From: Geosiphon pyriformis uo1
Lineage: Eukaryota; Fungi; Glomeromycota
Assembly (NCBI GenBank): GCA_016748015.1
Contig: JAAOMT010000201.1
Location: forward strand, 256,224-320,223
Length of the DNA stretch: 64,000 nt
Direction: 5' to 3'
Positions 1 to 58,091 of the stretch are shown here, piece by piece. The notes beneath the pieces are model-generated. The model searched no databases and had not been told where the DNA came from. It worked only from the letters and a program-made list of their open reading frames with translations. Made by a program: the position numbers and the translations under genes. The number at the start of each line of letters is the position of its first letter. Position 1 is the first letter of the stretch.

Positions 1-716
1 TCGTTCACTGCTGTTTCAGAGTGTTCACTTTGATTTTCAGCTAGAAAGTCAAGAAGATTGGAACTAATTTGAAGAGATTCTTGTTGTCTGGTGGGACTTC
101 TGAGTGATGTAAAATCTTCTGGTCTTGTAAATTGATTTAAGGGTGAATTAGGTGTTTGTGCTTATGCAAGTGAAGCTGAAAAAGGTGTGATAGTAAGTGG
201 AAGTTTTGAACTGGTTCCCTGTTCAGGTGTTTGTAAGTGTTTGGCAGTTGTTTTTGGTAATATTGGGATATTTGGGGTGGTTTTTGAGTATTGCTTCAAT
301 TTTTGTTTGCCTTTATTGCTTGTTTCTGTCTCTGATTCAAAATCAAAAGAGTATTTAGACTGTACTGGATATTTTTCTTCACAATATTCAATAATGTTAA
401 AATTAAGTTCTTGGAAGTAGATAGCAAGTGTTTTACTGTTCAGGTTTTCTGTTTCCAATTGTGAATAGTGCACTAAATTATTGTAGAGATTGCTTCTAAC
501 TTTTAAAATGTTGTAGTTTCCAAAAAGATAATTATTGATGCAGTTTTCAATGTATTGGTATACTGATTTCTTGACAACTTCAATTCCGTCTGGAATGTTG
601 AATTTTTGCTTGCAGTGGGTATAAATTGACTGGTAATACTCTAGAGTTGCTGTGTCTGGTGTGGTTGCCACTTTGAATTTGTTGTTGCTGTGTTATTTCC
701 GTGGAAGAGCATCAAA
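1..716 (-). pseudogene. Decayed gag 5' region of Gypsy family C element C1 (continues beyond window start)
   Basis: ORF 162-671 starts GTG-GCA-ACC just after PBS-like TG(A/G)TGCTCTT (705-714); paralogous to 2387-3016 (TLEYYQSIY..CKQ.F.I.DGIE). Confidence 0.75.
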
Positions 717-1697
717 TATTACTGGAGGTTTTTGGTCTCTTCTTAGCTTTTGTATGTTTGTTGTAATGCTGTTAATTCACAACTATGGAAAGTGTTTGAA
801 CCTCTGATAACTGAATTTATCTTCAAATTATAGGAAATAATTTGAACTGCTGGGCTTATAGTGGAATGGCCAATTCTGTGCCAGTTACTTTGTATAGTTA
901 CGTTGTAGTAAACATCAACTCTTTTCCAGGAAATGCTTGTCTGGAAGCTCACTAAAAATGTGTAGTTACTTTGCTGTGAAAGTCAACTCTTCTACAGGAA
1001 TTCTCGTCTGTAGGCTACCCTAATGATTATGATAATAAAAGAAAATAAAAGAAAATAAAAAAAATGTAAAAGAAATAGAATTCTATCAAAGGAAACGTTT
1101 CTATCCAGACCTGAAGTCACTAACAGTTTACTGAAATTGGTAGCTAATTAATTTCAAACTATTTAGTAGGAATTGGTTAATTTCAAAAGGGAAATAATTA
1201 AGGATTTGATTTTTCAAATTATTTGATATTTATTTTGTTTTTGTGTATAAAAGATAATTTTAATTGTTAAATCTAAAGTAAAATACATTTTCTCGAAGAG
1301 AGAAGCTCTTCTTTTATACAACTTGTCATAACACTATTCTATGAACTTGAACTTTGCTCTTTTCTACAATTTTGCTAAACTAAAGATACATTTCAGCGAA
1401 CTACAAGTTATTTCTGTGAACTATTAGATATTTCGGTGAACTATTAATTATTTCAGCAAATTTCTACAAATTTTGGCAAACTTTTGAATGTTACATATTT
1501 CAGGGTATTACATGATTGATCATCACAATTAGATTACATCTGTGTTATGTACAATTGAGTTATTAATTAAATAATAATTTTGGATATTTTGCTAATGTAA
1601 TAAGTGATAATTTGAAACGATAATATATGCTAATTAATAATAAGAATTATAAAGATAATTTCATGCTAAATAATATTTCTAATTTCGTCTGATAACA
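717..1697 (-). repeat. 5' LTR, Gypsy family C (C1)
   Basis: TG..CA-type ends (decayed), adjacent PBS, aligns with 3017-3973 and 58940-59896; inserted in gag of C2. Confidence 0.85.
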
Positions 1698-3016
1698 CTG
1701 GTTTCTCCAATAACTAGGTTGACAAGCTTGGTGTGATTTGCTTCTTCTATTGCCATTTTATAGTTTTTTGCATGTTTAATGGTTGTTACTAAGTCTGCTA
1801 AGGCATGTGGATAAACTTTTTTAATCAATTTGTCTTTTAATTTTGTTATAAATTGATCCAGAATTGGAGCATTGGAATAGTAGTCATTGGTGTCCAATTG
1901 TCAAATTCATCTAAGAAGTTTATTAAATTTTCCAAGATAGATCATAACAGTTTTGGATGTTTCTTGCTTAATATTATGAAAGCAATTCCAGAAAGTGATA
2001 GAGGTATTGTTGTTAGTAAATTGTTGTAAAAAAGCATTTTTAAATACTTGTCAGTTTTCAAAGGGTTCAATTAAGTTTTCAAATCATTCTCCTACTGTTT
2101 CTTGGAGAAAGTATGAAATTGTTTTAAGCATTCTTGCTGCATTCCATCCATTTACATCTCCTGCTTTCTGGACTTTGTTAAGTCATTCTTAAGGGCTGGT
2201 ATTATTATTTTTACCAGTGAATTTGGGAATCTTTGCAATATAAGCAGTTGCCATTTTTTCTTTATTTTCAGAAGTTTTTTCTTGTTCTGACTCAGTTTCT
2301 TTACTTTCCAAGCTTTCTGAATGATGACTTTTGTTTTCTTGTAAGTAATTAAGAAGATTAGTGCTGGTTAATATTGATTCCTGTTGTTAAGTAGAACTTT
2401 TTAGTAAAGTAAAATCTTCTGGTCTTAAAAATTGAATAAGAGGTAAATTTAGTGTCTGTAGTTGAGCAAATGAAATTGGAAATGATGTAACTGAAAGTGG
2501 AAGTTTGGTGCTGGTTCCTTGTTCTGGAGTTTGCAAGTATTTAACAGTTATCTTTGATGTTTTTGAAGTGTTTGGAGTGGTACTTGAGTATTGTTTTAGT
2601 TTTTGTTTGTCTTTATTACTTATTTCTGTTTCTGATTTAAAGTCAATAGAGTATTTAGACTCTACTGGGTATTTTTCTTCACAATACTGGATAATGCTAA
2701 AAATAAGTTCTTTGAAGTAGGTAACAAGTGTTTTACTGTTAAGGTTTTCAATTCCCAATTGTGAATAGTGCACTAAATTATTGTAGAAGTTGCTTCTAAT
2801 TTCTAAAATATTGTAATTTCTAAGAAAATAATTGTTGATGCAGTTTTCAATATACAAGTAAAGTGTTCTTTTAACAATTTCAATTCCATCTGAAATGTCA
2901 AATCTCTGCTTGCAATAGGTGTAAATTGACTGGTAATACTCTAAAGTTATTGTGTTTGTTGTGATTACTACTTTGAAGTTATTTTTGCTGTGTTGTTTCT
3001 GTAGGAAAGCACCAAA
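1698..3016 (-). pseudogene. Decayed gag of Gypsy family C element C2
   Basis: ORFs 2387-3106 and 1679-1897 (ILDQFI..LK..L..KV.P retrotransposon-gag-like); IAKIPKFTG motif near 2215-2240; stops and frameshifts. Confidence 0.8.
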
Positions 3017-3973
3017 TGTTATCAGAGGTTTTTGGTCTTTTTTTTGAATGTTGTTAATTTCTGTTTGTTGTAAATTCACATTTTTTAGAAGCAGTTGAAC
3101 CTCCAATAACTGAATTTATCTTCAAATTATCTTCTATAATTTGAACTCCTGGGCTTATAAGTGGAATGGCCAATTCTATGTCAATTATTTTATGTAATTA
3201 CATTGTAGTAAACATCAACTCTTTTCCAAGAATTGCTCATCTGGAAGCTTACTAAAAATATGTAGTTACTTTGCTGTGAAAGTCAATTCTTCTACAAGAA
3301 TTTTGTCTATAGACTACTTTGATAATTATAATAAGAAAAGAAAAGAAAAATAAAAGAAATAGAATTTTGTTAAGGAAAATGTTTTCTATCCAGCCCTGGA
3401 GTCACTAACAGTTTATTGAAATTGGTAGCTAATCAATTTCAAAACGTTAGTTGTGTTGAGAAAATTTCAAGTGTAATAATTTAAGAATTTGGTTTTTGAA
3501 TATTTTAATTTTTATTTGATTTTATAAAAGATGATTTGTTCTAATTAAGATATTTAAAGTAAGATACTATGGTAAAATATGAGAAGATACATTTTTTTGA
3601 AGAGAAAAGTTCTTCTTTTATACAACTTGTTATAGTACTAGTCTTTGAATTTGCACTTTTTTCTTTGCTCTAATTTCAGCAAACTAAAGCTATATTTCGG
3701 TAAACTACAAGTTATTTCACTGAATTATTGATTATTTTAGCCAATTTTTATTAATTTCGACGAATTTTGATTATGTTAAATGGTTCAGGGTATTGTGTAA
3801 TTTAATCATCTTAATTTTTATGGTACAAATTGGATTATTGGTTAAATGATGATAATTGCTAATTTAATTAAATAATAGATAATAATTGAAATAATAATCA
3901 TATATGCTAATTAATAATAGGAATTATGAAAGTAATTTTATGCTAATTAACAGCTAAAATTCTACTGGTAACA
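3017..3973 (-). repeat. 5' LTR, Gypsy family C (C2)
   Basis: TGTTAC...TAACA ends; PBS TGGTGCT adjacent at 3008-3014; same length (957 bp) as solo copy 58940-59896. Confidence 0.85.
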
Positions 3974-5446
3974 ACAGTAGTAATCAAAATCTTAATGGTA
4001 TTGGCAATTGGAATTTAAATTTTTCAAAATAATTGTTATAAGTTCCTAATAATTCTGCTTTCTTTTGTTTACTTTGAAATAGGAGTTGTCTAAATGTTGA
4101 TGTTGTATTTGATGTGGATGTGTCTGCTAATGTGATATTGATGGTACTTCCGGATATGTAATAATATGATGGATATAGTGGAAATTCAATTCTTTGTTTC
4201 TTTAATATTGGTAATTATATTCCTTTTGGAATTGCTGCTGGTGTTTGTAACTTTTTTTTACTCTTATTTGCATAGATAATGGGAAATTGTCGTTGAGTAT
4301 ATCTTTTAATTTCTTGAGTAATTTTCTTGATAATTGGTGCAAAACTGTGATTTTATGGTAAGCTAGTATATTGGATTAATTCTATATAGAAATTTTTTCT
4401 TGCTGATTTAATGTCAACTGGTCTTCCTAAAAAATCAGTGATTTTTTCATTGACATAAAAGTTGAAGGCTAATTCTGCTGAATAATAGTTGTTGGTTAAG
4501 CCTAATTGTTGGCTGTACTATTAAAATAAGGATTTGGTAAATCCTAAATGATTTGTTTCTATTATTTTTGATTCTGCTATTTTTGGATGACTGATGTTAG
4601 TGCTAGTTCTCTGTAAAATTATACCTTACAAGAAGCACCAAATATTACAGATGATTATTTGGAGTCTCAAAACAAATAACAAATCTATAACTTAATGTTT
4701 AATTAATTTAATGATATAGATCTCTGATGATTTTGTCTCTGGAGGTTTTCATGATTTGAAAATTTTGGTTGAGTTCTTTATATAATAAACAGAGATTTGA
4801 TAATAATGTTGCTGTTATTGGTAAGTTGTTTCCCAATTTTTTTTTTCAGCTTGATAACCAGTTTATTTTGGCAGTTATGCTCTTTAGTAAGCTATCCGTT
4901 AATATATATATAATATTACTCTTCTTTTAGATCTTTTATCAGGCTATCCATGACATTAATAATTCAGTGTTTAATCCTCAATCAATTAGTAAACACAACA
5001 AAATAAAATAAATAAATAAAAGAGATAGAGAAAAAATAAAGAAAATAAGCCAAGGCAATTGCAAATTAGTATCTTATTAATAGCCATAATCAAAAACTAT
5101 TGTTCTAGTATGGTCAAGTATCGATTACTATTAACACTTTATGTTAATAATGAAAAGTGGATTGAGATAACAAATAATTATTTATTGATAGTTTTGATTT
5201 GGAAGGTTGCTTAGATGAAATCTAAACTGAGATGTCTTGATAATGTTTTTTTCTGCTTTTAATACTCTTGCTATATATACATAATTTAGGTTCTACAAAA
5301 TCACTCACATTTTCGAATAATGTGCTATGATTTTTTGAATAATACTCACATTGCTTGAACAATATGCTCATATGCTAACTACTATTCTTTTATTGGTTTA
5401 TCTGTTTTTCTTACTATTTTTTTTCTCTGTTTTTCTATGAATAACA
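3974..5446 (-). mobile_element. Gypsy family A 5' end: LTR 4643-5446, PBS and decayed gag start 3974-4642
   Basis: LTR homologous to 46452-47328; PBS TGGTGCTTCTTGTAAG; gag remnant homologous to 55200-55690. Confidence 0.8.
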
Positions 5447-13700: not shown

Positions 13701-13789
13701 ATAATATTACAGGATGCATATTATTTTGACTATAGAAGAATAGAGGAGGTAATCAGGTATTCGACAGCCTCCAGCTAATTTTAAAGAAT

Positions 13790-18178: not shown

Positions 18179-19513
18179 CAAAGAGGTATAAAAAGTATTG
18201 GACACTTAATATAATATATAAAAAAAGCTATATATAGTAATACCATTACCAATTTAAGCCATAATTTTTTTTATAATTACTTATAGTTATAATCTACAAA
18301 TCAACATAAATCACATCCTTGTAAAACACAACAGTGGATTATATGCATATATATAAAATATCAAACATTCTTGTTGTGAAAAAATTTACCACATCAAATG
18401 TGTCTTGAAAAAGAACTTTCTAAATACCAAAAAGGAGAAATTATTTTAGCAATAAAATTAAAACATACAAACAGTAAGATTTTCACGACTATTAGATGTT
18501 CATGTTCTTCTGTAATACATATATGGAAGTCATACAAGCTAAAAAAACTTCTTAAAAAACGAATGGGCCAATCACAAATTCTTGACAAATGCATACATAA
18601 ACAACTTAAATATTCAATAATGGAGAATAAAGAAACCTACTGCCAAACTTTTTCTCAAATATGATTGAATTTTATTAAAGATACCAATAAATCTATTTCT
18701 ATACAAACTATTCGAAATGGATTAGCTCAAGAAAGACTTCATTTGTGCATTCCTTGTCTCAAGCCATTAATTTCTAAATCAAATAAAGAAAAACATTTAT
18801 AATAGGCTTGTACTTATGAAAATTGGACAGTAGAAGATTTTAAATGAGTTGTTTGGTCAGATGAATCTACATATACACAATTTAGAACTACAGAATTTGG
18901 ACATATATGATGTAAACCTTCCAAAGAGTTTCATAAGGATTGTATTGCAGCCATAGTTAGAAAAAACTTTGGTCACATGTTTTGAGAATGTTTTTCATGG
19001 GTTGGTTTGGGTCCTTTATTTCTTTTGGTTGGTCATATTACTAGAGTTATACACCATGAAACCTTGGTTAATTATGCAATTCCTACAGTAAAACTTCATG
19101 CAAAAAAAACTAAAAAAAAGTTTTTTTTTCAAGAAGACAATACATCAATCGATACATCAAAAGTTGCATGTTCTTTTCTTACTTCCTTGGCCAGCACAAA
19201 GTCCTGATATTATTCCAATAGAAAATTTTTGGTCATATATTGAAGTTAAAATTAGTTAACATAATTCACAACTCTCAAATATTGTACAATTAGAACAGTG
19301 GGTTAAGGAAGAATGGGATGCAATACCTGTAAATTACTATCATAATTTAATCAAGTCTATGCCATGTCAAGTTCAAGCTATTCTTGAAGCAAATGGGGGT
19401 CAAACAAAATACTAACATGTATTTTAATATAATAATAAAAAATTAACAATTCATAAGTTAGTTCTTTTATATAACATATTATAAAAGTGTCTAATACTTT
19501 TTATACCTCTCTG
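18179..19513 (+). mobile_element. Tc1/mariner DNA transposon (1335 bp)
   Basis: ~29-bp TIRs CA(A/G)AGAGGTATAAAAAGTATT(G/A)GACACTT; TA TSD (18177-78, 19514-15). Confidence 0.95.
18398..19415 (+). pseudogene. Tc1-family transposase, degenerate
   Basis: N-terminal HTH region, VVWSDES, FQEDN, WPAQSPDIIPIENFW, ANGGQTKY*; stops and frameshifts. Confidence 0.9.
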
Positions 19514-20738: not shown

Positions 20739-21426
20739 TGTTATAAGTAAACTTAGTGGTATATGGTAGTAACATTTGGTGCTTTAATTTGGGTTTCTAG
20801 AAAGCTTTTAATGATTTTCTTTTGGTAGACTTGTTTGGTATATTAGTGTTATCAATCTTTGAAGATCTGTTTGATTGATATGAATTTACTTATAAAGTTC
20901 TTTGGTTATAAAGCATAAAGAGATATTTTACAGTGTTATAACTTCTTGTATATGAATGTGAGCTATCTTCTCCAAGCTAATAAACACAGTTGTTAGGGTC
21001 TGGCAGTATATTTTCACCCTTCTGGTAAGCTACTAAGTTAATATTAATATTCAAACTTAAAAAGAGCTTTCTTTTTTTATCAGACTATTATAAAGTCTAT
21101 TTTCAGACAGTCAATTTTTTTATGTTGCTGTTCTATAAGAGAGAATAAAAGAAAATAAAAGAAAATAAATAGTATTGTTAATTATTATGATCAAAAATGA
21201 TTGGTTCAAGTCATTAGTGGTTTGAAACATTTATGTTAAAAGCATTTGGCTAGAAACAAAGATAAGAACAAGATTAATTTAACTAAAATACATAAATACA
21301 AAAATCATATAAACGTAAATTTTGAATTTGTTTAATATTTCTTTATTTCAGTAAAATAAAATATAAGTGAGACCAAGAAATATATAATAAATACAGATAG
21401 AAAAAAGTTAATTCTTTTTTGGCTGT
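20739..21426 (-). repeat. U5/R half of a family-B-like solo LTR; U3 half at 57585-57902
   Basis: Reverse-complement similarity to 24190-24831; the halves are colinear and separated by a CTGT duplication. Confidence 0.7.
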
Positions 21427-24400: not shown

Positions 24401-24892
24401 CTTTTCTTTTTTTTTTTTTCTTTTTTTTTTCTTTCTTATTTTGTTTGTGAAGCAGCAACATAGTAAAATTGATTGTCTGGGAATAGACTTTGTGATAGTC
24501 TGGTAAAAGAGGGAAGCTTCCCCTAAGTTTTGGATATTAACATTATCTTGTTAGCTTACCAGAAGGGCGAAAAGACAATGCCAGACTCTAATGATTCTGC
24601 TTGTTAGCTTGGAGAAGAAAGCTCACATTTACAGAAAACATTGCAATTGACAAAAAACAAACTCTGTGCCTTATAACAAAAAAACTCAACAGGTAAATTC
24701 ACATCCAGGAATAGATCTTCAGAGACTGATAATCAAGACTAAGCCAACAGAATTATACAGAAGATGCATCATCAATAATTGAGAGCACCAAACGTTACTA
24801 TTTTCCATACCCACCAAGTTTACTCATAATATTTGGTGCTCCCTGTGAGATTATAAATCCACAGAGACAGAGCACTCCAGAAATACACAAAA

Positions 24893-37359: not shown

Positions 37360-40300
37360 TGTTATAGATGATTATTTAAGATCTTAAATCAAATAACAAA
37401 TCTGTAACTTGGTGCTCAATATCTTAACAATGCTGGTGATACTAGTACATTGGTTATATCTAAAAGTTTTAGAGTTGAGTCCTTTGTATAATAGACAGAG
37501 ATTTAAATGATGGCTTTATCCATAGCTTCCCAAAACTGCAGTTTTATCAAATTTCTTTCTTAGCATGGTGGCTGGTAATCTTTCTGGTAAGCTATCCTCA
37601 AATTTATAAGTGTTCTATCTTTGTTTCACAGGTCTTTTACCAGTCCCTATGATGTCTGTATCTCAGCACTTAATCTTTAATAAATTTTAGTAAAACCCAA
37701 GAAATAACAAAAAAAAATAAAAAAAAATAAAAAAAAATAAAAAATTTTAACAAAAAGCAATTGCAAGTTAATATCCTGTTAATAGCCATGATCAAGAGCT
37801 ATTGTTCCAGTATAATTAGGTATCAAGTACTATCAACATGAAGTGTTAATAGTGGAGAGTGTATTAAAATGGCAAATAATTATTTATTGATATTTATGAA
37901 TAGAAGATTGCTTAGATCAAAACTAAACTGAGAGGTCTGTTCTTTTTTCTTCTAATGCTATTGCTATATATACATAATTTGGGTTCTACAAGATCACTCA
38001 CATTCTCGAACAATGTGCTATAATTTTTCAAGCAATGCTCACATTGTTGAGCAATGTGCTGTATTTTTTTGACATTGCTTTATATTGCTAAGCAATGTGC
38101 CATGATTTCTGACATTGTTCCACATTGCTGAGCAATATGCCATGATTTCTAATATTACTCTACATTGCTGAGCAATGTGCTCGCATGTTACTACTACTCA
38201 CTTATTAGTCGACTATTTTTTTATATATTTGTTTTCTTTTTATAAGTAACATTATCTCTTCTTTTTTAATATTGAGCTCTGTTGAAATCTTTGTTTTGAA
38301 TTAGTTCTAATACTTCTTTTTCAAGTATTGTTTGTTCAACTCTGTTTCTCACATCTTCTACTTGTGTATTGTTTATTTTTCTCCATTGGTTAATGGTAAT
38401 GACTTTCATGTCCGAGTGTAACAGTATTTCTAAATAGTTCCAAAATATGTTGTATAGTCAATACATTGTTTTAATATGTAATGTTGAATTTGTTTTCTTT
38501 CTGATAAATTCTTCAATTTGTTGTATTATGTCTTGGTTAAATATTTTTTTAGATTTGTCGATATACAACTCCTAAATATTCAACTTCTGACCTAACTGGT
38601 AGTAACAGTATAATATTGGAAGTTGTTCTGTTTATTGTTTCTAATTCTCTTTAGTGAGTTTTTCTGTTGGTGTCATCATAGGTATTGTCCCAAAAGTGTT
38701 CTTTACTTTTTCTATTATCTTCTCTGACCAGTTTTTATCATTCTTTGATAACCATTAATATGGTATGTTCTTTGTCTTTCTTTTGGTTTTTTGATAGCAA
38801 ATTGTTTGGTTGTTAATGATAATTTCCATGTTTAACTGTTGTTGACTTAAGGCCTGGAACAGTTGTTGAGCTATAGTGTGAATATGATCTGGTATTTCTA
38901 TTTTCTTGGTTGCTTTTGTTGCGTGTATTGTGCCTTTATATACTCTTTTGGGTTGTTTGATTTGACGTGTTTGGTTCGATAATTATGATTGGTTTCAGAT
39001 CTCATGGAATCTCATCTGGTTGAACTAGTATTCTTTGTACTCCTAGTTGTAGAATGTTATTAGTGAATGATGATGCTATCTGGTGATATTGTTTTAGTCG
39101 ATCACCATGTGCTGCTTTGGCTAAGATTTTGTTGTCTCATCTTAATTTATAAGCTCCATTTCCAAGAATTTCTTCTATGTGAAATGGTCTATCTCATTTG
39201 GGGTCAAATTTTCCACTCCATTGTTTTTCCACTTTAGTACAATGTAGAAGTACTTTGTCTCCAATCTTGAATTTAACTGGTTTGTCTGATAGTTGGTTAT
39301 CATGTCTCTTTTTTTGTTTTTCTTGTGACTTTTAAATGTTATCAGCTGCTCTTTGTCACTTGTTTTCTAGAGTTTCCATCAAGTCATATGTTCTTCTTAG
39401 CAATGTTTCTTGAAAATTGTCTTCAGTTATTGGTTCTGTTGGATATGACTTGACTTCTATCTCAACTGGTAATATTGCTGTTCTACTGTAGACTAATTCA
39501 AATAGTGTTGCTTGTGTAGTGTTTTGTTTCATTGTTTAATAAGCAAATAATACTGATGGTATAATCAAGTCTTATTTGTCCTGGTTTTTTTGGCTGATTT
39601 TGGCAATGGCTTCACACAATGTTCTGTTAAACCTTTCTACTAATCCATTTGTTTGTGGATGATATGGTGATGATAATGGTCTTTTGATTCCAAATCTTTG
39701 ACTTAATTCTGTCAATGTTCTGTTTACAAAGTGGATTCCTTGATCTGATAGTAGTTATTTTGGACATCTATGTTGACAGATCAAATCTTGATGAATGAAT
39801 TTGGTAACGGATTCTGCGTCTGCTCTTTGAATTGTTTTTGCTTCTGGCCATTTAGTAAGATAGTCCATGGCTATTGCAATATATCTGTTGCCTCTGCTAG
39901 TGATTGTTAGTGGTCTGACTAAGTCAATTCCAATGTGATTAAATAGTTGTCCCACTTTAATTGGTCTTAATGGTTCACTGGGTTTTGTTCCTTCTCTTCT
40001 TTGACAAACATTACAATTTTGAACATATTAGATAATGTTTGAATACATTAATGACCAATAGTATCTTTTTCTAATTCTTTTCATGATTGCTTCTTTATAA
40101 AAATGTTCTGTTGTTGGATCTGAGTGCATATTGAATAATATTGTCTCTTTTTCTGGTTCTGTGATTACTCTGGTTGGTTGATCTGGATTTTTTCTGTTCT
40201 TCTGGTAAAGTATATTTTGATGATTGATAAAATATTTTGATTGTTGTTTTATGTTCCTTTGTTCTTTTCGAGATAATTTTTCCTGAAACAAATGGGTATT

Positions 40301-46300: not shown

Positions 46301-46451
46301 AAAGTTTTTCTCACTGATTCAGTGTTTACTGATGTCCCTAACAAATAGGCAATTCTATTGTTAACATAAAAATTGAAGGCTGATTCTGCTAATATATGAT
46401 TATGATTTAATTTCAAGTGTTGACAGTAGTGTTGAAATAAGGATTTTGCGA
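37360..46451 (-). mobile_element. Second Gypsy family A element: 3' LTR 37360-38251, internal to 46451, resumes 56629-56732
   Basis: PPT after 38251; ORF3, integrase, RT/RNase H ORF 40466-41560, dUTPase 42131-42595, gag fragments 44668-46451. Confidence 0.9.
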
Positions 46452-47341
46452 TATTACAGGTGATTATTTCTGCTGTCAAACCAAATAACAAACCCATAAC
46501 TTGGTGCTCAAAGCTAATTGCAGTTGCTATTGATCTGAAGATTTAGTATCTGAAGGTTTTGGTTGAGTTCTTTGTATAATGGATAGAGATTCAAATGGTG
46601 TCGATAATAGATGTATCCTTCCAAGAGTTTTCCTAATTTCTTTCTCAGTGTGATGGCTGGATTTAGTCTGGTAGTCGTGCCTTTCTGGTAAGCTATCCGA
46701 TAATATATATATAAAATCTTACTCTTATTTTTGGGTCTTTTACCAGGCTATTCTTAACGTCAATAACTCAGCACTTAATCTTTTAATCAATTAGTATACA
46801 ATAACAAAATCAAAAATGGAAAAAATTGAAATAAATAAAAAATAAAAATAAAGAAAGTAAAGAAAATAAGCCAAGGCAATTTGGTCTGTTAGTATCTCGT
46901 CAATAGCCGTGATCAAGAGCTATTGTTCCAGTGTGGTTAAGTATCAATTACTATCAACATGAAGTGTTGATAGTGGAGAGTGAATTAAGATATGGAATGA
47001 TTATTTATTTAATGATTAGTTTCTTGGCTAAGGATTCTGTGGTATTGATTCTGTCTTTTTTGTTTCTAATACTACTGCTATATATACATAATTGAGATTC
47101 CTCAATTTTTCGATTCTTTACGACAAGAATCCTGGAATTCCTGGAATCCTGCGAGTCCTTTGAGAGGAATCCTGGAATTCTGGAATTCTGCAATTCCTCA
47201 TTGAGAATCCTGAAATTCCTGGAATCCTGCAATTCCTAAGAGGAATCCTAGAATTTCACATTTACTATGCTTACTTCTGATTGGCTAATAATTATGCTAA
47301 TATAATTCCTATATTTCTATGAGTAACATTATTCCCTCCTT

Positions 47342-47974
47342 TTAATATTGAGCTCTATTGAAATCTAACTCATGTAATTCCCTCTCTTGAAGTATTTCCT
47401 GGATTTTGTTTTTGAGAATTACTTGTGTTATTTGGGTCTGTAATTCTTCAAATTGAGTATTGGTGATTTTTCCCAATTGATTACTAGTCACCATATCTAT
47501 TTCTCTGTTGAGCAATATTTCTGGTTTATTCTAAAATGCTGTGTGTATTCGGTATATGGCTCGGGCTTGTGTGAATAAGTTGTTCTTTCCCAAAGAATGT
47601 TCTAATTGTTGTAGTATTCTTTTGTCAAATAATTGCTTTGTTTTATCTGTATATAGATTCTGGATATTTATGTGTTGTCCCAAGTAAAAATAACAATAGT
47701 TTCATGGAAATTGTTGTATCCACTAATTCCAAGTTTCTTTAGTCAACTCTTGATATAGTGACTCTTTTGTCAATTCTTTGATTATTGCTAATTTTACTTT
47801 CACAATGATTTTGTCCACTGTATTTTCAGTTTTTTTTTGTGTTCTGAGTTGTAATGTCTTTCTAGTATCTTGATATCGAATAGTTTGTTGATTGATTGTA
47901 ATCTCCATTTTCTGGTGTTGGATTAATTGAAAGAGTTATTGTACTAGTGAGTGAATGTTGTCTGTAATTTCCAT
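47342..47974 (-). pseudogene. ORF3 of best-preserved family A element
   Basis: ATG 47974 to TAA 47342 (DFNRAQY*); TATATAAA at 48015-48008. Confidence 0.7.
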
Positions 47975-48028
47975 TTTTCTGATATTTCCTATCGCGTCTA
48001 CCATGTCTTTATATATTCTTTTGATGAA

Positions 48029-49411
48029 TCAATTTAATGTGTTGTTATCAATAATAATGATTGGTTCCAGATCTTGTGGAATTTTATCTGGTTGGACTAG
48101 TATTCTCTGTATTCCTAATTGTGGAATATTACTGGTAGATGGTAATGTGATGTTGTGATATGGTTTCAGTCGATCTCCATGTGCTGCTTTGGTTAAAATT
48201 TTGTTATTCAATCTTAATTTGTAAGCTCCATTTCTTAGAATTTCTTTTATGTGAAATGGTTCGTCCCATTTGGGATCAAATTTTCCACTCCATTGTTTTT
48301 CTGCTTTGGTACGATGTAGTAATACTTTGTCTTTAATCTTGAATTCAACTGGTTTGTCTGGTAGTTGACTATCATGTCTTTCTTTCTGTGTTTCTTGTGA
48401 CTTTTGGATATTATCAACTGCTCTTCTTCATTTGTTTTCCAATGTTTTTATTAAGTCATATGTTTTTTTCAGCAATGTTTCTTGAAAATTTTCTTATGTT
48501 ATTGGTTCAGCTGGATATGTATTAATTTCTCTCTCTACTGGTAATATTGCTATTCTCCCATATACTAATTCAAATGGTGTTGTTTGTGTAGTATCCTGTT
48601 TCGTTGTCCGATAAGCAAATAGTACTGATGGTATGAACAAATCCCAATTGTTTTGGTTTTTTTGGCTGAGCTTGGCTATTGCTTTACACAACATTCTGTT
48701 GAATCTTTCTACCAATCCGTTGGTTTGTGGATGGTATGGTGATGATAATGGTCTTTTGATTCCAAATCTTTGGCTTAATTCAGTTAATGTTTTGTTCACA
48801 AAATGAGTTCCTTGGTCTGACAATAATTCTTTTGGACATCCATGTCGACAAATCAACTCCTGATAAACGAATTTGGCAATGGATTCTGCATCCGCTCTTT
48901 GAATTGCTTTTGCCTCTGGCCATTTAGTAAGATAGTCCATAGCTACTGCTATGTATCTGTTTCCTCTGCTGGTGATTGTTAATGGTCTGACTAAATTAAT
49001 TCCCATATGGTCAAATGGTTGTTCTACTTTGATTGGTTTTAATGGTTCACTGAGTCTCATTCCTCCTCTTTGCTGACAAGCATCACAATTTTGAACATAT
49101 TGAATGATGTCTGGATACATTGATGGCCAATAGTATCTTTTTCTAGTTCTTTCCATGGTTGCTTCTTTGTGAAAATGTCCTGCTGTTGGATTTGAGTGCA
49201 TGTTGAATAATATTGTTTTTTTTTCTGGCTCTGTAATTACTCTGGTTGGTTGATCTGGATCTCTTCTATTTTTCTGATAAAGTATATTTTAGTGAGTGAT
49301 AAAATATTTTGATTGTTGTTTGATACTCTTTTATTCCATATGAAATAAATTCTCCTTGAACTGTTGAGTATTTAGATAATGTTGTAATTGTTAATATTTT
49401 TGTATGTTCAT
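48029..49411 (-). pseudogene. Integrase
   Basis: ORF 48494-49201 with H..GH..CDACQ, SDQG, YHPQTNGLVER; own ATG at 49411. Confidence 0.9.
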
Positions 49412-49473: not shown

Positions 49474-52400
49474 TTAGATTTGTCTTATTCGCAATAAACT
49501 ATCAACATTTCCATTGTCTTTTCTCTTTTTGTAATGTATAGTATAATTGTATAGTGCGAGTGCCATTTTCTATCTTGACTGTCTTCCATCTCCAAATTCT
49601 TGTTTTTGGAGTGATGTCAATCCCTTGTGATCTGTGTATACTTCAAATTTCTGGCTTAAGTATTTTTTCCATTTCATAATGGCCCAGTATATTGCTAAGT
49701 GTTTTTGTTCTGGTGTTCCATAGTTCTTTTCGGCTGGTGTTAAATCTCTGCTGGCATATGCTACTGGATGTTTTCTGCTGTCCAGTTTTCTCTGAGATAA
49801 TACTGCTCTCAATGCTTGGCTGGATGCATTAGTGGTAATGATGAATAGTTTGCTGTAATCTGGATAGATCAGTACTGGAGCTTGGATGAGCTTTTTCCTC
49901 AGAATATCAAAAGCTTCTTGTTGACTTTCTGTCCATTCATATTTCGCATTTTTGTTTTGTAGTTGATTGAATGGCTGCGCTATCTTGGAAAAGTTCTTGA
50001 TAAAATGACAATAGTAGCTGGCAAATCCCAAGAATGATTTCAGTTCTGTTATATTGGTCGGTACTGAAAAGTTCTTTACTATCTCTATTTTCTCTGGATC
50101 CATTTTGATGCCATCTTTACTGACTATGTGTTCCAAAAATTTGAGTTCCGTCTTGCCAAAGAAGCACTTTGTCACATTTAACTTCAGTCCTGCTCTTCTT
50201 AGTCTTTCAAACACTTGTTGAAGATAATGAAGATAATCATCAAACGTCTTTGAGAATACATTGGTGTCATCCAAGTATACAACTACTGATTTCCACAATA
50301 AGCCCGTATAAACAATTTCTATTAACCATTGGAAAGTCGCTGGGGCATTGGTTAAACCAAATGGCATTACTTCAAATTCGAAATTCCCTTCTCTAGTAGT
50401 AAATGCCGTCTTTTTTTTGTCAGCTGGATACATGGCTACTTGCCAGTAACCACTGTTCAAATTTAATGTGAAGAACCATTTGTTCCCACCAAAAGCATCG
50501 AATAATTTCTGTATTCGTGAAGTTGGATAACTGTCTCCACAAGTTACACCATTGAGTTTCCTGTAGTCTATACAAAACCGGATTTTTCCATTTTTTTTAC
50601 GGACAAGTACCACTGGTAACAACCATAGACTTATTGATGATTGAATTAGCCCGTTGTCAAGCATTCTGTTTATCTCTTGACGAATAATCTCGTGGCTGGC
50701 TGGCAGTACTCTGTATGCTTTTTGTTTGATTGGCATTGCATCTTCAGTCTTGATCTGATGCTGGATAATGTCAGTTCGGCCAAACTCATTTTCACTGGCA
50801 AAGATGTTATTGAACTTGTTGAGTAATATCTTGAGCTGCATACATTGGAGTGGATCTAAGTTTCCCATGTTTATTTGTTCCAATTGTTCTGGTTGGAGCA
50901 AATAACATTTGTCTCGTCCATAGATTGTTTGTGATGTGATGTCAACATATTCACAAAGTTGTGGAAAGTCTGGAATAGGGTTTAGTGGTTGGTCTTCTAT
51001 TTCTGTGATTAAATATCCAATGGTCGTTCCTTCTGGTATGGTGATGACATTGCCAGTATTGTTGTAGATGGGAATTTTTATGCTGCTATAGCCTTTGGCT
51101 GGTATGTGGAGATTGATCAACCCAATCTCTCCTGATTCACAAAGGGTTGTTTCCGCTTCAAACATCTGTTCTTGCTTCTTTTCTTTCCTTTCTATTGCTA
51201 ACATGTACTGGCTATATGGTGGAATGGAAATAGCTTGACCAGTTGAGATAATTTCTCCTTGGCCAACAATTTTTTCCTCTGCCATGTTAACTGGTACATC
51301 TATTCTACCTGTGAATCCGAATCTCTGTATTTCTCTCGCCATGATTCTTAATTCCTTCCTCTTTTTCACTGATACTAACTGAGCTATTCTAACCAGAAGC
51401 AGGAATATTGCCTGTGCTATCTTTTCATTGGACTTTATTACATAGGCTTTTTCTGAGTCATTTTGTAGCATAGCGATGATATTTTTTACATATCCCACGT
51501 CAATTATTTCTCCTCTTATATTAATCCCTCTTTTCGCTAAACTACTTCTAGATGCTAATTGAATCATAGTTGTTGCCAGAATTTCTAGTACTACTTTCAG
51601 ATCAATGCAGGTGTGTAAATGTGGTTCCAATTTGATGGCATTTTTTCCTGGATATCTTAGATCAAACCCTGCATCAGTATCATGCACACATTCTGGCATA
51701 ATACCTTCCCCATTGTCACTATACCATTTCAACTCTTGTTCTTTGGAGAGATCTAATAGTGCAATGTATTGTTCATAGTTTACCTTGGAGTTTGTATCTG
51801 AGTTGGAATCATTGTCATTGTCATTGCCATTTTGAATGGAGTTTGAACCATTGTTGTCACCATCATTGTCAGAGTTTGAATTGTGATTGATTGGTGATCC
51901 TGATTCTGATGCGCAGCTGCTGATTGGTTCTTCCTCTTCCAGAATCGTATAAATCATGTGTGGTGGTGGATTGTAAATGAGGTCACACTCATCACAATAC
52001 TGGAAGTCACAGGGAATTAGGCAGTGTTGACATAGTCAAGCATTCAACTGCTCTAATTGTTGTTCTTGTTCTTCCCTTGTGGATGCTAATTCTTGGTAGT
52101 ATTCGTGGAATTGTTCCGGATCCAGGAGGTTTATGATGGGTTCTGCATCTCAGTCAAGCTTTAAAGGTTCTGGGGGGTTGTCTTTGATTGTTTTTATCTC
52201 TTTTAGTGTTGCTTCTTCAATTTTTGCAAGTGCCATTCGCCAAATTTCATTGTTGTCAAGTGGGCAACTGTCCAGTCGTTGTATGGCTCTTCTTCAGGCT
52301 GCTTTTATTGGGGTTTCTTTCTTTATCCAGTCACTTATTAGAATTGTGTATTGACACGATACATCACACATTCCTCTTCGTCCAGTAATGTCATGCCACA

Positions 52401-55400
52401 TTCCTTTGTCCAAGAGAGTCTCTCCACAAGCTAAGCATGGCTGATTGTCCCATTTCCCTACTCGTTTTGGTCTTCCAAAGCGTTCAAGGATGCATGAGCG
52501 GCAATAAAACCTAGTTGCTGTTGAATATTCCTCATCATCCCCACAGCATGCACCCATTAACAACAATTTCTTGCCACAATTGATGCATATAAGCTTAGGT
52601 CGACGATAGATAGATTGTTGTGGTATAGTGTAGGTGTTATAAGTGGTAGTGGTTTGAGTGGTCTCTTTTTCTTTTCCTTTCTCTTTATTTTCTTTGTCTT
52701 CTTCCCATTTCCAGCTTGAAGTCGGTTCGCTCTCATCGTTGTCGGTCCATGTCAGGTCATCAGTTTCCCAGGTAAGTTCTTCCTTTTGTTTCCCTTTTCT
52801 CTTGTTGTTGTCGTCCCAAGAGAGTATTGGTGGCAGCTTGTTGTGCTCTTCATCAGCCCACAATACTTGGTAGGCTTCCCAGATAGGCTTTTCTTTCTCC
52901 TCCTCCAGCTCGATCAATAGTTTCTCTTTTGAAGGAGTTTTGAAGTGGCCATATGTGGCCGGAACAATGTGTTGGGCCTGATACATTAGCTGGAGTTCTT
53001 GGGTGTTCCAGTTTAATGTTGCATTGACTTTGAATAGCCAGTCATTACCAACGAGAGCTTGGTATTGAGTGGCTTTCATTACTAGAACTTTAATGGAAGT
53101 TACTATGCCATTGACTTCAAAAGGGAAATTGTCAATTTCGCTGATGGGAGTTTTGGTCGTTCCATTGGCTGTGATGATTTTGGTGCTGGCAGCTCGATTA
53201 ACTCAGCGACCTAATTGTTCCATGAGTTGTCTAGTGATTATACTGCCAGCTGATCCACTATCTAGGATGAGTTTGATGGGGTGACCATCAACTCTGGTAT
53301 CTGTGTACATTGCTGTTATGGGTTTTTCTTCGAGAGTGGCTCCATTGAATAATGGTATTGGTGCATTTTCTTCAAGTTCAAAAGGAAAAATGACTGGTAG
53401 GAATTCGTCGCTAGAGATGGTTGCCAGTGGAATGGTGTTGGTAGGTACGTGCTGATTGAATTCTGTGTTGTTAGATGTGATGTTTTCTGGGGTAACTAGG
53501 AGACTTAAATAATGTTGAGAATTTGGGTTTTGGACGCGACTGGTATCCAAATTCTGGATGCGTGATCCTGATGGTGGGTTTAGCAAACTGGGGATTGGTT
53601 GGTGAACAACCATTGCCAATCTCCAGTTTTGAGTGACTCTGGATCAAGGATTGCCTGATGTCATTTGAGCTGGGTTTTGGGTTGGTGTTTGAATTGGTTG
53701 AGGTTGATAGATGATTTGTGGCTGCAGTTGATATATTACTTGTGGCTGTGGCTGATGAATCGGAGGTTGATATACTGACGGTTGATAGATTGGTTGCTGC
53801 GTCATGGGCAGGTAATTATTTCAATATTGATCTTGACTCTAATTTGAATAATGATTCGGAGTTTGGAACTGGCGATTGGGGTTTTAATATTGATTTCCCA
53901 ATTTTTGGTTATTTAGACACTGGCAACAGTCAATTTGGATATGACCTTGTTTACCACAATAGTGGCAGATACGTGTTTCCTGTTGTCACTGTTGATTAGT
54001 CGATGAAGATAGACATAGTTGATTTTGGCCACGATTAGAATTTCCTTGATTATTGCGTCATTGTGGAGACTGATAAATGGCATGATTGTCAGCTAAGTAT
54101 CCTTCCAATCTCTTATTAATTGATTCACTGAACTTCTCCAATTTAGAATCCAATTCAGATGATCCATTCATTACTAGGTTAATGGCTTGGGCATGGTTAG
54201 CCTCTGACTTGGCAGATTCAAAATCTTTGGCATGTGTAACTGCGTCTTGAAAGGTACCTGGATGCAATAGCCATACATGTTGCAATATGCTGCTGCACAA
54301 GCCACGGATAAACTGATTGAGTATCTGTGGTGCTGTGAAATAATTGGCATCAATTGCTTGAATTTGGCATAGGTTTTGATGGAAGCATCCCAGGTAAGTG
54401 GTAACTGCTTCAGTTTCTCCTTGTTTTATGGTGGTGAATGCATTAACTAGGCAATTGATGCTGTTATTGTTGCTGAAGTATCTTAGAAATTCAGCTTTGA
54501 AGACATTGAAATCTTGTGGTTTATTAACCAAGCTCTAATACCATGAATTGGTGGTATCCTTGAGAAAGTAGGGAATGGCTTGCATTGCTCGAGCGTCATT
54601 CCATCCATTGACTGTGATGGCTTTTTCTACATCGTTCAGCCATATTTGAGTGTCATCCTCTTTGCCAGTAAAGTTGTTGAGTTTTGCAATTGGTGCATAG
54701 GCCATTGGATCTAAGTTAGGTGGTTGTAGTGGCTGTTGAAGCAGTTGTTGTTGTCCTGGCTGTTGGGGTGGTAGTTGAAGTAACTGTTGTATAAGTTCGG
54801 CTACAGGATTAATTGGCAGTTGATCGATGACGATTACTGAAGGTAAGTTTTGCTGATTAATTAATTTAGGGTTTTGATTTTTTTGATTTGGCGGCGTTTG
54901 AATATTCGGAGTTTCGATTTCCGAATTTTTTAACTGTTGCTGAGTTTGAATGTTTGGGGTTTCAACTTCTGGATTTTTAGTGATTGGGTGCTGATAAGTG
55001 AATTCTTGATCCTCTGATTCTTCTTTCTTCTTTTCTGATTCCACTGCTTCTCATGGATCAGAGATTCTGAAATTTGGTGGAGGCGGTGGTGATCGAAGTC
55101 CTGATGGGGTTGATGATCGCGAATTAAATCCCTCAAAGTATTTCTCATATGGTCCTAACAATTCTGTTTTCCTTTGTCTACTTTGGAATGGGAATCGTCC
55201 AAATGCTGATGTCGCAGTTAATGAGAACACGTCTGTTGATGATATGTTGATGGTGCTTTCAGGTGTATAGTGGTAGGATGGGTTGCTTGGGGATTCAACT
55301 CTGTTTTTCTTCCAAGCAGGTGGCTGTATTTTTCTGGGTGTTACTGCTGGTGTTTGTAATTTTTCCTTGTTTTTACTAGTGTATATAATTGGATATCTTT

Positions 55401-55689
55401 GTTGAGTGTGATGTTCAATTTCTTTGTTGATCTCAGTAATGATGAATGCGAAATTATGATTTGTTGGTAGGTTGGTGTTTTGGATTAATTCCTTATAGAA
55501 AGTTTCTCTTGCTGATTCAGTATTCATTGGTGTTCCTAATAAAGAGAAAATTTTTTAGTTGATGTAGAAATTGAAGACTGATTTGGCAGATATATGATTG
55601 TGGTTTAATCCCAAGTATTGACAATAGTGTTGAAATAAGGATTTTGTGAATCCTAAATGGTTTGCTCCTATAGTTTCTGATTCTGCCAC
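49474..55689 (-). pseudogene. gag-CCHC-PR-Cys-rich-dUTPase-RT-RNase H polyprotein region (degenerate)
   Basis: CHYCGKQGHIQIDC knuckle, LILDSGS protease, dUTPase DAGFDL/SRSSLA/IIDVGY/KIAQ/FGFTG, RT VYLDD, RNase H; 795-aa open segment 49570-51957. Confidence 0.92.
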
Positions 55690-57584
55690 TTTTGGTTTGG
55701 TGTTGTCGGTGCTGGTTCTCTGTAAGATTATACCTTACAGGGAGCACCAAATGTTACAGGTGATTATTTCTGCTGTCAAACCAAATAACAAATCTGTAAC
55801 TTGGTGCTCAAAGCTAATTGCAGTTGCTATTGATCTGAAGATTTAGTATCTGAAAATTTTAGTTGAGTTCTTTGTATAATGGACAGAGATTCAAATGGTG
55901 TTAATAGTAGATATATCCTTCCAAAAGTTTTCCCAATTTCTTTCTCAGCATGGTGACCAGATTTAGTCTGGCAGTTGTGCCCTTCTGGTAAGCTATTCGA
56001 TAATATATATATAAAATCCTACCCTTATTTCTGGGTCTTTTACCAGGCTATCCTTGACTTTAATAACTCAGTGCTTAATTTTTTAATCAATTAGTATACA
56101 ACAACAAAATCAAAAATGGAAGAAAATGAAATAAATAAAAAATAAAAATAAGGAAAGTAAAAAAAATAAGCCAAGGCAATTTGGTCCATTAGTATCTCGT
56201 CAATAGCCATAATCAAGAGCTATTGTTCCAGTGTGGTTAAGTATTAATTACTATCAACACTTCATGTTGATAGTAGAGAGTGAATTGAGATATAGAATAA
56301 TTATTTATTTGATGATTAGTTTTTTGGCTAAGGATTCTGTGGTATTAATTCTGTCTTTTCTGTTTCTAATACTACTGCTATATATACATAATTGAGATTC
56401 CTCAATTTCTCGATTCTTTACAACAGGAATCCTGGAATTCCTGGAATCTTGCGATTCCTTTGAGAGGAATCCTGGAATTCTAGAATTCTGCAATTCCTCA
56501 TTGAGAATCCTGAAATTTCTGGAATCCTGCAATTCCTAAGAAGAATCCTGGAATTCCACATTTACTATGCTTACTTCTGATTGGCTAATAATTATGCTAA
56601 TATAATTCTTATATTTCTATGAGTAACAACGAATTCTAAATGGTTTGCTCCTATACTTTCTGATTCTGCCACTGTTGATTAGTTTGTTGGTGCTGGTTCT
56701 CTGTAGGATTAGATCTCACAGAGAGCACCAAATATTACAGATGATTATTTGTGGTCTCAAATCAAATAACAAATCCATAACTTGGTGCTTAATATCTTAA
56801 CAATGCTGGTGATGCTAGTATGTTGGTTATATCTGAAGGTTTTAGAGTTGAGTCCTTTGTATAATAAACAGAGATTTAATTGATGGTTTTATCCATAGCT
56901 TCCCGAAACTGCAGTTTCATCAAATTTTTTTCTCAGCGTGGTGGCTGGTAATCCTTCTGGTAAGCTATTCTCAAATCTATAGTGTTCTACCTTTGTTTTG
57001 CAGGTCTTTTACCAGTTCCTATGACGTCTGTATCTCAGCGCTTAATTTTTAACCAATTTTTAGTAAAACCAAAGAAATAACAAAACAAAAGAAATAAAAG
57101 AAAAATAAAGAAATAAATGAAAACAATTGCAAGTTAGTATCCCATCAATAGCCGTGATCAAGAGCTATTGTTCCAGTGTGATTAAGTATCAATTACTATC
57201 ACCATAAAGTGTTAATAGTAGAGAGTAAATTGAAATGGTGAATAATTATTTATTAATATTGTGGATGGAATGTTTTTAACTAAAGAATTCTTCTTTTTCT
57301 ACTTCTAACATTATCACTATATATACATAATTGATGTTCTATGAGATTGCTCACATTCTCGAGCAATGTGCTATGATTTCTTGAGCAATGTGCCCTAATT
57401 TTCTAACATTGCTCCACATTACTGAGCAATGTGTCATGTTTTCTAATATTGCTCCACATTGTTAAGCAATGTGCTGTGATTTCTGTTATTGTTCTATATT
57501 GCTAAGCAATGTGCTTACATGCTAAATGCTATTTGCTTATTGGTCTACTATTTTCTTATATCTCTTTTCTTTTTATGAGTAATA

Positions 57585-58091
57585 CTGTCTTTCTAACTTC
57601 TATAACTACTTATTTTTATATATTTTTTTGTTCTATAGAATTGCTTTTTAATTGTTTTGTTCTTACTAGCTATTGTTTTGCTATTTCTGTTATTGCTTTG
57701 TTCTTTTATGTTATTACTAATTATTTTATGTTTCAACTAGTTATTTCATACTATAATATATTATTGAGTTTTATATTATGTTATCCTAAGTTATTATATA
57801 TTATTCTGTGTTTTTTTACATTATCCTATGTTATTTTATGTCATTATGTTTTTGGTTACATTTTTTTCATAACTTTGGATTGGGTTTTCTACTTGGGTAA
57901 TACTGACCACCATGCTGAAAAAAGAAATTTATAGAAAAAACTATCAATTAAATCTCTGTTTATTATACAAAGAATTCAACCAAAACCTTCAAACTCCAAA
58001 AACTTTCAAATATTACCAACATTATTAACTATTGAACACCAAGTTATGGGTTTGTTATTTGTTCCAACATCTCAAATAATCACTTGTAACA
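57585..58091. repeat. Remaining halves of two split LTRs: family-B-like U3 (57585-57902, minus) and family A U5 (57903-58091, plus)
   Basis: 57585-57902 matches the reverse complement of 32890-33245; 57903-58091 ends CACTTGTAACA like 6984. Confidence 0.75.

What the first reader, a model, noticed from the sequence alone, without database searches (positions are those of the whole stretch)
55708..55809. PBS has two alternative self-complementary partners: possible RNA switch or self-priming
Seen in family A: U5 GAGCACCAA-GTTACAG pairs with CTGTAAC-(AT)-TTGGTGCTC. Family B: GAGAGCACCAAA(C/T)GTTA (24781-97) pairs across the LTR end + PBS (24827-43). Family C: AAGAG-ACCAAA pairs with TTTG(G/A)T-G-CTCTT. 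Downstream, the PBS also folds with its 3' neighbour (GGTGCT/AGCACC + CTGTAAG/CTTACAG in A; GTGCTC/GAGCAC + CTGTG/CACAG + GATT/AATC in B), with compensatory differences. The U5 copy mimics a tRNA 3' end (GAGCACCA). Known: Tf1-type elements self-prime. Inference: mutually exclusive folds gate priming versus translation, or the LTR supplies its own primer.
Basis: partly seen in the sequence, partly recalled or inferred. Interest (0 to 1): 0.7.

Follow-up and report, generated by a model that had tools for sequence, protein, structure and literature searches.

The report
Folded-over tRNA primer site in retrotransposons
In decayed jumping genes of a symbiotic soil fungus, the site where DNA copying starts has two conserved partner sequences on its own RNA that are predicted to keep it covered, but the site itself matches a tRNA end, so a host tRNA is the likely primer rather than the element's own RNA.

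Summary
The inverted repeats are real. The interval is the 5' LTR end and primer-binding site (PBS) of a decayed minus-strand Ty3/gypsy element of a glomeromycotan fungus (all 120 listed Gag relatives are Geosiphon pyriformis models). Both folds beat shuffles in this copy (0 of 500 each). Family B has both partners; family C's claimed PBS partner is at chance level. The U5 partner resists transversions but shows no significant covariation, and only PBS nt 1-8 swap partners. Self-priming is unlikely: the PBS starts TGG two bases after the LTR, is the same 18-mer in the majority letters of families A and B, and complements tRNA 3' ends (17 of 18 phage tRNA-Met; 15 of 18 a Gigaspora tRNA half). 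The U5 copy covers only nt 1-8 and lies 42-82 nt behind the predicted start site. Best reading (0.7): tRNA priming on a PBS masked by two cis folds next to a retrovirus-like U5 stem. The host tRNA and RNA ends were not seen. Side finding: gag appears to start at a conserved GTG. Earlier scan notes describe self-complementary PBSs in diatom copia elements, nothing on this DNA.

The parts
55752..56628 (-). 5' LTR of element A1 (877 bp, TG...CA; 92% identical to the 3' LTR, 62 of 68 substitutions are C/T or A/G)
46452..47328 (-). 3' LTR of A1; preceded by a polypurine tract and AA, mirroring the TT after the 5' LTR
55870..55879 (-). TATA-like box (9 of 9 family A LTRs); initiator-like TTCA with its A at 55851, 28-31 nt later in 8 of 9; predicted start site, not mapped
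   Evidence: depth peak 55864-55887
55801..55809 (-). U5 complement of PBS nt 1-8 plus one spacer T (partner I)
55794..55800 (-). left arm of the U5 stem that pairs with the LTR end (U5-IR-like)
55753..55759 (-). right arm of the U5 stem = LTR end
55764..55788 (-). inner U5 stem (invariant arms) with a variable loop
55732..55749 (-). 18-nt PBS of A1, starting TGG after a 2-nt spacer (55750-55751)
55720..55726 (-). inner 3' partner, pairs PBS nt 10-16 in both predicted conformers
55708..55713 (-). outer 3' partner of PBS nt 2-7 (partner II), competes with partner I
55687..55689 (-). GTG codon that opens the gag frame; candidate non-AUG start
49570..55689 (-). gag-PR-dUTPase-RT-RNase H in one frame, broken by 13 in-frame stops; CCHC knuckle at 53926-53967
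47330..49288 (-). integrase with SH3-like domain and tail, broken by stops; no chromodomain hit
24783..24798 (+). family B U5 partner (PBS complement 24783-24792, then short arm against the LTR end)
24834..24851 (+). family B PBS; majority letters equal the family A majority in all 18 nt
24856..24875 (+). family B 3' partners (inner 24856-24864, outer 24870-24875)
56670..56790 (-). same arrangement in element A2 (LTR end 56733, PBS 56713-56730, GTG 56670-56672); A1 is inserted just downstream
4578..4700 (-). same arrangement, more decayed, in element A4 (LTR end 4643)
2969..3110 (-). family C copy 2: 13-bp U5 stem with the LTR end (left arm from 3110), PBS 2997-3014, no significant PBS partner
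669..811 (-). family C copy 1: same, with GTG at 669-671

Best explanation
These Ty3/gypsy elements likely prime reverse transcription with a host tRNA that pairs with an 18-nt PBS, and the two self-complementary partners are predicted to keep that PBS base-paired until the tRNA is loaded. Shown: the PBS begins TGG two bases after the LTR end, complements real tRNA 3' ends, and has one partner in U5 and one in the leader. Predicted by folding: PBS nt 10-16 are always held in a local 3' hairpin, while nt 1-8 pair either with U5 (extending a stem that closes on the LTR end, formed first during transcription) or with the leader. Inferred: the CCHC domain of Gag melts these folds and anneals the tRNA inside the particle, as retroviral nucleocapsid does, so the folds act as a lock on primer placement; the U5 stem at the LTR end, present in all three families, is the counterpart of the retroviral U5-IR stem.
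For: CA|TT|TGG at all six PBS junctions (one with a G>A change) and a mirrored AA|TG (decayed to AA|TA in B) after the polypurine tract of the four 3' LTRs examined. Majority letters in contigs of run X1 give the same 18-mer in families A and B (55736 C in 70% of depth; 24850 G in 83%) although Gag is 42% identical and the LTRs do not align by blastn. A pattern built from the PBS complement plus a T-loop motif hit 17 viral contigs, 17 of 17 tRNA-Met(CAT) genes, whose 3' end complements 17 of 18 majority letters. A Gigaspora margarita tRNA 3' half (PMC7082362 supplement 2, Locus_2936) complements 15 of 18, by my comparison. The U5 copy covers nt 1-8 only and lies 42-57 nt (A) and about 82 nt (B) behind the TATA/initiator-predicted start. 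Family C keeps a 13-bp U5 stem (0 of 500 in C2) with no PBS complement before it. Transversions: 1 of 41 partner/stem columns against 10 of 17 loop/flank columns in 9 LTRs (columns not independent). Contig depth peaks on the PBS hairpin and the U5 partner and drops between and beside them. CCHC knuckle in Gag; nucleocapsid-assisted annealing is stated for HIV-1 in PMC11181671 (passage).
Against: The host's own tRNA was not seen (no genome; no exact match in prokaryote genomes, or in two supplement sets). The phage tRNAs are related to each other and cannot be the primer; the Gigaspora half differs at 3 of 18. The 3' hairpin is homologous in A and B and could by itself conserve PBS nt 9-18. Family A contigs may add to the depth on the B PBS. 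The start site is predicted, not mapped. No covariation support for any helix. A2 and A4 U5 duplexes are not significant on their own (62 and 207 of 500). All copies in the window are decayed; no function was tested.
Confidence: 0.7

Rival explanations
1. Tf1-like self-priming, alone or as a back-up: the U5 copy anneals to the PBS, RNase H cuts after it, and the released piece primes minus-strand DNA.
For: In A and B the PBS complement directly abuts the arm that pairs with the LTR end, and the duplex is interrupted exactly at the LTR/PBS junction (2-nt bulge in A, C-A mismatch in B). The complement is at a fixed distance from the LTR end and has no transversion in 9 LTRs. Depth falls sharply just upstream of it. 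Self-priming by a 5' LTR segment is shown for Tf1 and proposed for Tj1 and Tcn1 (passages).
Against: Tf1 uses the first 11 bases of its RNA; here the complement is 42-82 nt behind the predicted start and at a variable distance. It could regenerate only PBS nt 1-8 of a conserved tRNA-like 18-mer. Family C lacks it. Symmetric AA|TG...CA|TT ends fit a primer ending in CCA. No chromodomain; RT groups apart from the chromodomain-bearing and plant sequences.
Confidence: 0.12
2. The partners work between two RNA molecules: the PBS of one genome pairs with the U5 or leader partner of another and so helps dimerise or package the RNA.
For: One PBS with two near-equal partners allows strand exchange; alternative leader folds control dimerisation in HIV-1 (passages).
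Against: No test here; intramolecular pairing already explains the pattern; a dimer through the PBS would have to be undone for priming.
Confidence: 0.08
3. Only the U5 stem at the LTR end matters; the PBS complements are leftovers of inverted duplications made during reverse transcription and have no role.
For: The family B partner is close to an inverted copy of LTR end plus PBS; family C proliferated without a significant PBS partner; no covariation.
Against: The 9-nt complement is kept in A and B and has 0 of 9 columns with a transversion while its flank has 4 of 4; the outer 3' partner is retained in gene models in all three reading frames (39, 6 and 3 of 65).
Confidence: 0.1

Closest known systems
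tRNA-primed LTR retroelements with a structured PBS segment (HIV-1 PBS segment, U5-leader stem; retroviral U5-IR stem)
   Same: 18-nt PBS complementary to a tRNA 3' end, two bases after the LTR; PBS region folded and needing a CCHC chaperone; alternative leader folds (passages of PMC11181671 and PMC1865047). The U5-IR stem is named in a title seen in a reference list; its detail is recalled.
   Different: Here the whole PBS is predicted to be paired in both states and its CCA-binding half has two cis partners; fungal gypsy lineage; no experiment.
Tf1/Tf2 of Schizosaccharomyces pombe, Tj1 of S. japonicus, Tf1/sushi group
   Same: Ty3/gypsy; LTR segment complementary to the PBS followed by an arm pairing with the LTR end; single gag-pol frame.
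   Different: [quoted passage not shown]
dUTPase-carrying fungal Gypsy elements (Postia, Phanerochaete, Tuber)
   Same: dUTPase between protease and RT, as in PosPlaTy3-5 (passage of PMC2864245).
   Different: Those were found in a survey of chromodomain elements; these lack a detectable chromodomain and group with Rhizophagus and Dentiscutata RTs.

Membership tests
Ty3/gypsy LTR retrotransposon | LTRs TG...CA with gag-PR-RT-RH-IN order | tested here: met
tRNA-primed LTR element | PBS starts TGG a few bases after the 5' LTR | tested here: met
   CA|TT|TGG at six junctions, one with a G>A change
tRNA-primed LTR element | PBS complements the 3' end of a real tRNA | tested here: met
   17 of 17 hits are tRNA-Met genes; with three acceptor positions left free, 115 of 120 hits are tRNAs of several kinds; 15 of 18 to a Gigaspora tRNA half
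tRNA-primed LTR element | Match to a tRNA of the host itself | not testable with these tools
   no genome held
tRNA-primed LTR element | Minus-strand strong-stop DNA linked to tRNA | not testable with these tools
   needs particles or RNA; no RNA holder listed
Tf1/sushi self-priming group | LTR segment complementary to the PBS | tested here: met
   A1 and B above chance; A2, A4 and C not
Tf1/sushi self-priming group | Complement is the 5' end of the transcript | tested here: inconclusive
   predicted start 42-82 nt upstream; not mapped
Tf1/sushi self-priming group | PBS not complementary to a tRNA | tested here: not met
Tf1/sushi self-priming group | Chromodomain after integrase (group feature recalled) | tested here: not met
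   no chromodomain family at E up to 1 in 3 read-through proteins; copies are decayed
Tf1/sushi self-priming group | RT nests with Tf1/sushi | tested here: inconclusive
   no Tf1 sequence in the tree; window RTs fall outside the group holding the one chromodomain-bearing homolog (122 rows, FastTree, midpoint root)
Tf1/sushi self-priming group | RNase H cleavage of the RNA duplex releases the primer | not testable with these tools
   biochemical test
Conserved RNA switch | Significant covariation in both helices | tested here: not met
   U5 stem: 1 of 16 pairs, 434 of 500 shuffles as high; only 9 related LTRs, so low power; PBS helices have 4 copies, not tested
Conserved RNA switch | Two conformers of similar energy | tested here: inconclusive
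   gap 0.7 (B), 1.5 (A2), 5.1 (A1), 6.4 (A4) kcal/mol

The most novel reading that the evidence does not exclude
Families A and B are a natural half-way state between tRNA priming and self-priming: they keep a full tRNA-type PBS but also carry an in-cis PBS complement in Tf1 geometry that can be cut and extended as a second primer, while the same fold tunes translation of Gag from a non-AUG (GUG) start. A shift of the start site by about 40 nt would turn such an element into a Tf1-type self-primer.
Probability: 0.12. Interest if true: 0.75.

Novelty: new variant of a known kind. Interest (0 to 1): 0.4.

Why it matters
How self-priming arose from tRNA priming is open; an element with a tRNA-type PBS and a Tf1-like cis partner offers a direct test. 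Even on the likely reading it extends PBS-masking leader structure from retroviruses to a very abundant fungal gypsy lineage (LTR sequence covers 41.2% of the G. pyriformis genome, passage of PMC11952901), and it warns that a self-complementary PBS alone does not show self-priming. The apparent GUG start of gag is a separate, testable oddity.

Tried and rejected
No whole genome held, so no host tRNA set or genome-wide alignment. Related-locus search in viral contigs: none. LTR-end+PBS patterns: 0 of 137 viral loci hit by the Pol query and 0 of 31 metagenome loci with gag or pol; they served as a null set (107 usable distinct loci). tRNA-end pattern in prokaryote genomes: 0. Pattern for a family C tRNA end: 0, so C's primer is unidentified. 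No RNA holder listed; runs X2 and X3 laid nothing. Rfam: 7 weak matches, all far below gathering scores. My first hand-written U5 structure was mis-registered in its inner helix and was replaced by the RNAalifold one. My first guess, elongator tRNA-Met, is doubtful: the Gigaspora halves I take for elongator Met (Locus_4032, 4333; label recalled) match about 12 of 18, less than Locus_2936 (15 of 18; I take it for an Ile tRNA, label recalled). Splicing from the U5 stem arm to the G of the GTG would create AUG in A and C but not in B, and the donor lacks the +5 G; set aside at about 0.1. A U5-leader stem (55777-55785 with 55691-55699) stabilises conformer II in A1 but is not seen alike in A2 or B. 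A decay-tolerant pairing test was too permissive to add support in family A (76-275 of 500) and helped only C1 and C2 (5 and 4 of 500). Literature: searches gave 0 papers, 67 gave one Ty1 paper (listing only), 59 gave unrelated primers; the primary Tf1 papers, a review and a tRNA-fragment paper were not held. One supplement file of PMC13106029 was a scan and could not be searched.

Full report
Setting. The window is a nest of decayed Ty3/gypsy retrotransposons. Element A1 lies on the minus strand between LTRs at 55752-56628 and 46452-47328 (877 bp, 92% identical, 62 of 68 substitutions C/T or A/G) and is inserted in a relative, A2. Its gag, protease, dUTPase, RT and RNase H share one frame broken by 13 stops, followed by integrase. 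Family B (plus strand, LTRs 23773-24831 and 32890-33919) and family C (LTR ends at 717, 3017, 59899) are more distant; B Gag is 42% identical to A1 over 308 residues. A host LRR gene matches AM fungi (5 of 5 hits) and all 120 listed of 146 relatives of the Gag N-terminus are Geosiphon pyriformis gene models, so the host is that species or a close relative. No whole genome is held.

The observation. Both pairings exist as written. In A1 the U5 duplex (-25.4 kcal/mol) and the 3' hairpin (-19.6) each beat 500 of 500 shuffles; among 107 unrelated loci that share the LTR-end+PBS 15-mer, 1 and 0 are stronger. B is significant for the PBS core (0 of 500) and the hairpin (6 of 500), weaker for the whole U5 duplex (15 of 500). 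A2 and A4 keep the hairpin (0 and 8 of 500) but not a significant U5 duplex (62 and 207 of 500). In both C copies the claimed PBS partner and the hairpin are at chance level. What C has is a 13-bp stem between a U5 arm and the LTR end (C2: 0 of 500), so the stem that closes on the LTR end is the feature shared by all three families, short in B.

Conservation versus covariation. In 9 family A LTRs the U5 stem is paired in 97% of cells but only 1 of 16 pairs changes on both sides, which shuffles match (434 of 500). One-sided changes are mostly G>A or C>T, which decay produces by itself. Selection shows instead as sequence constraint: 1 of 41 partner and stem columns has a transversion against 10 of 17 loop and flank columns (related sequences and a structure derived from them, so the formal p value is too small). 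Contigs of run X1 (4693 laid at 80% likeness or more) pile up on the PBS hairpin, the U5 partner and a TATA-like box and thin out between them (depth is not copy number). Between A and B the PBS stays fixed and the partners differ, which points to an outside constraint on the PBS.

The PBS looks like a tRNA site. It starts TGG two bases after the LTR's CA at all six junctions (one with a G>A change), and the 3' LTRs are preceded by AA after the polypurine tract, giving symmetric ends. The majority letters of A and B (24850 G in 83%) give the same 18-mer; some A contigs may add to the B count, but G remains the majority if all excess depth is removed. Read as a tRNA 3' end it gives CCA, a discriminator A, a 7-nt acceptor strand and a 5-nt T-stem strand starting with the invariant C (tRNA numbering from general knowledge). 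A pattern built on that reading hit 17 viral contigs, all 17 tRNA-Met(CAT) genes of related phages, complementary at 17 of 18 majority letters; loosening three positions returned 120 hits, 115 in tRNA genes of Met, Leu, Ile, Thr and others, so the geometry is supported but not the amino acid. A tRNA 3' half in the Gigaspora margarita small-RNA table (PMC7082362, supplement 2, Locus_2936; rows seen) has the same T-stem and acceptor end and matches 15 of 18. The host's own tRNA was not seen.

The folds. From the predicted start to past the gag start, PBS nt 10-16 pair with the 3' neighbour in both conformers; only nt 1-8 switch between U5 (I) and the leader (II). Ensemble energies I/II: A1 -45.5/-50.6, A2 -44.0/-42.5, B -37.3/-36.6, A4 -28.2/-34.6 kcal/mol; opening the PBS costs 19-21 kcal/mol in A1, A2 and B, against -30 to -34 for the duplex with a natural tRNA end, before the cost of opening the tRNA. 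So the PBS is predicted to be covered in either state, and a chaperone would be needed; Gag has a CCHC knuckle, and nucleocapsid does this job for HIV-1 (PMC11181671, passage).

Self-priming. Tf1 primes with the first 11 bases of its RNA after RNase H cleavage (PMC7175516 and PMC4600332, passages). For it here: the complement abuts the stem arm and the duplex breaks at the LTR/PBS junction. Against it: a TATA-like box (9 of 9 A LTRs, 2 of 3 B, 1 of 3 C by the pattern used) is followed 28-31 nt later by an initiator-like TTCA (8 of 9 A, 2 B, 1 C), and the complement lies 42-57 nt (A) or about 82 nt (B) further on; in C the stem arm begins at that predicted start with no PBS complement before it. 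These starts are predictions. The complement could restore only nt 1-8 of the PBS. No chromodomain is detected, and the RTs group with Rhizophagus and Dentiscutata sequences apart from the chromodomain-bearing homolog, in a tree without Tf1 itself. I put self-priming, alone or as back-up, at 0.12.

Side finding. In all three families the gag frame opens at a GTG-type codon 46-63 nt after the LTR (GTG in 3 of 6, GTA in 2, ATA in 1, ATG in 0); the peptides from there align across families and an in-frame stop lies 5-27 codons upstream in the four copies A1, A4, B and C1 (none near in C2), with no in-frame ATG between stop and codon. Of 120 Geosiphon models, 65 cover the position by my motif: Val 56, Met 5, Leu 3, Glu 1, and the peptide before it comes in all three frames, so the upstream part is non-coding. 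A GUG start is likely; searches found no paper on it for a retrotransposon gag. No consistent fold covers this codon, so coupling to the PBS fold is untested.

Comparison and verdict. It works like a retroviral PBS segment with a U5 stem (PMC11181671, PMC1865047, passages; the U5-IR parallel in Tf1 is known to me only from a title in a reference list, and recall). It is a Ty3/gypsy element, and it fails two features of the Tf1/sushi group. Searches showed no paper describing the PBS or leader of these elements; most subscription papers are not searchable, so this is weak. Other papers seen: PMC2864245, PMC11075540, PMC11952901 (passages), PMC13106029 (supplements searched, no match). Earlier scan notes report self-complementary PBSs in diatom copia elements; nothing by sequence, GTG words or place. 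Verdict: real, conserved structure; new variant of a known kind; tRNA priming with a masked PBS at 0.7; interest 0.4.

Noticed in passing
window 55687-55689 (-), 56670-56672 (-), 4578-4580 (-), 24893-24895 (+), 669-671 (-), 2969-2971 (-): The gag frame of all three families opens at GTG or its G>A decay forms, never ATG in the window; 56 of 65 Geosiphon gene models have Val there. Likely conserved non-AUG start.
   Followed up: partly
window 49570-52035 (-): dUTPase domain between protease and RT in A1; some relatives carry it too, one has a NUDIX domain instead (P0061).
   Followed up: no
window 47330-48100 (-): About 270 codons in frame after the integrase SH3-like domain with no Pfam match; unknown tail or extra ORF.
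   Followed up: no
window 46448-46451 and 56629-56632; 23769-23772 and 33920-33923: Target-site duplications look 4 bp long and contain a CpG (differences between the two copies are C>T/G>A) for A1 and B; A1, B and A2 are inserted into other copies of the same elements.
   Followed up: no
window 55054-55689 (-): Gag has an N-terminal region of about 280 residues without Pfam match, alignable across the three families and found only in Geosiphon models among the 120 hits listed.
   Followed up: partly
window 6123-6338, 18040-18198, 23828-24053, 32925-33170, 57690-57878, 22038-22152, 38025-38179, 57399-57513: 10-nt and 40-nt tandem repeats inside the U3 part of the LTRs.
   Followed up: no
window 20746-21363 (-): A diverged family B-like LTR that keeps both the TATA-like region and the U5 PBS complement.
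   Followed up: partly
window 10543-14488: Host F-box/LRR-like gene region between the elements, related to AM-fungal proteins.
   Followed up: partly
PMC7082362 supplement 2, Locus_2936: The tRNA most like the predicted primer yields a 33-nt 3' half among Gigaspora small RNAs (188 reads at the locus); masking the PBS might shield the element from such fragments. Speculation.
   Followed up: no
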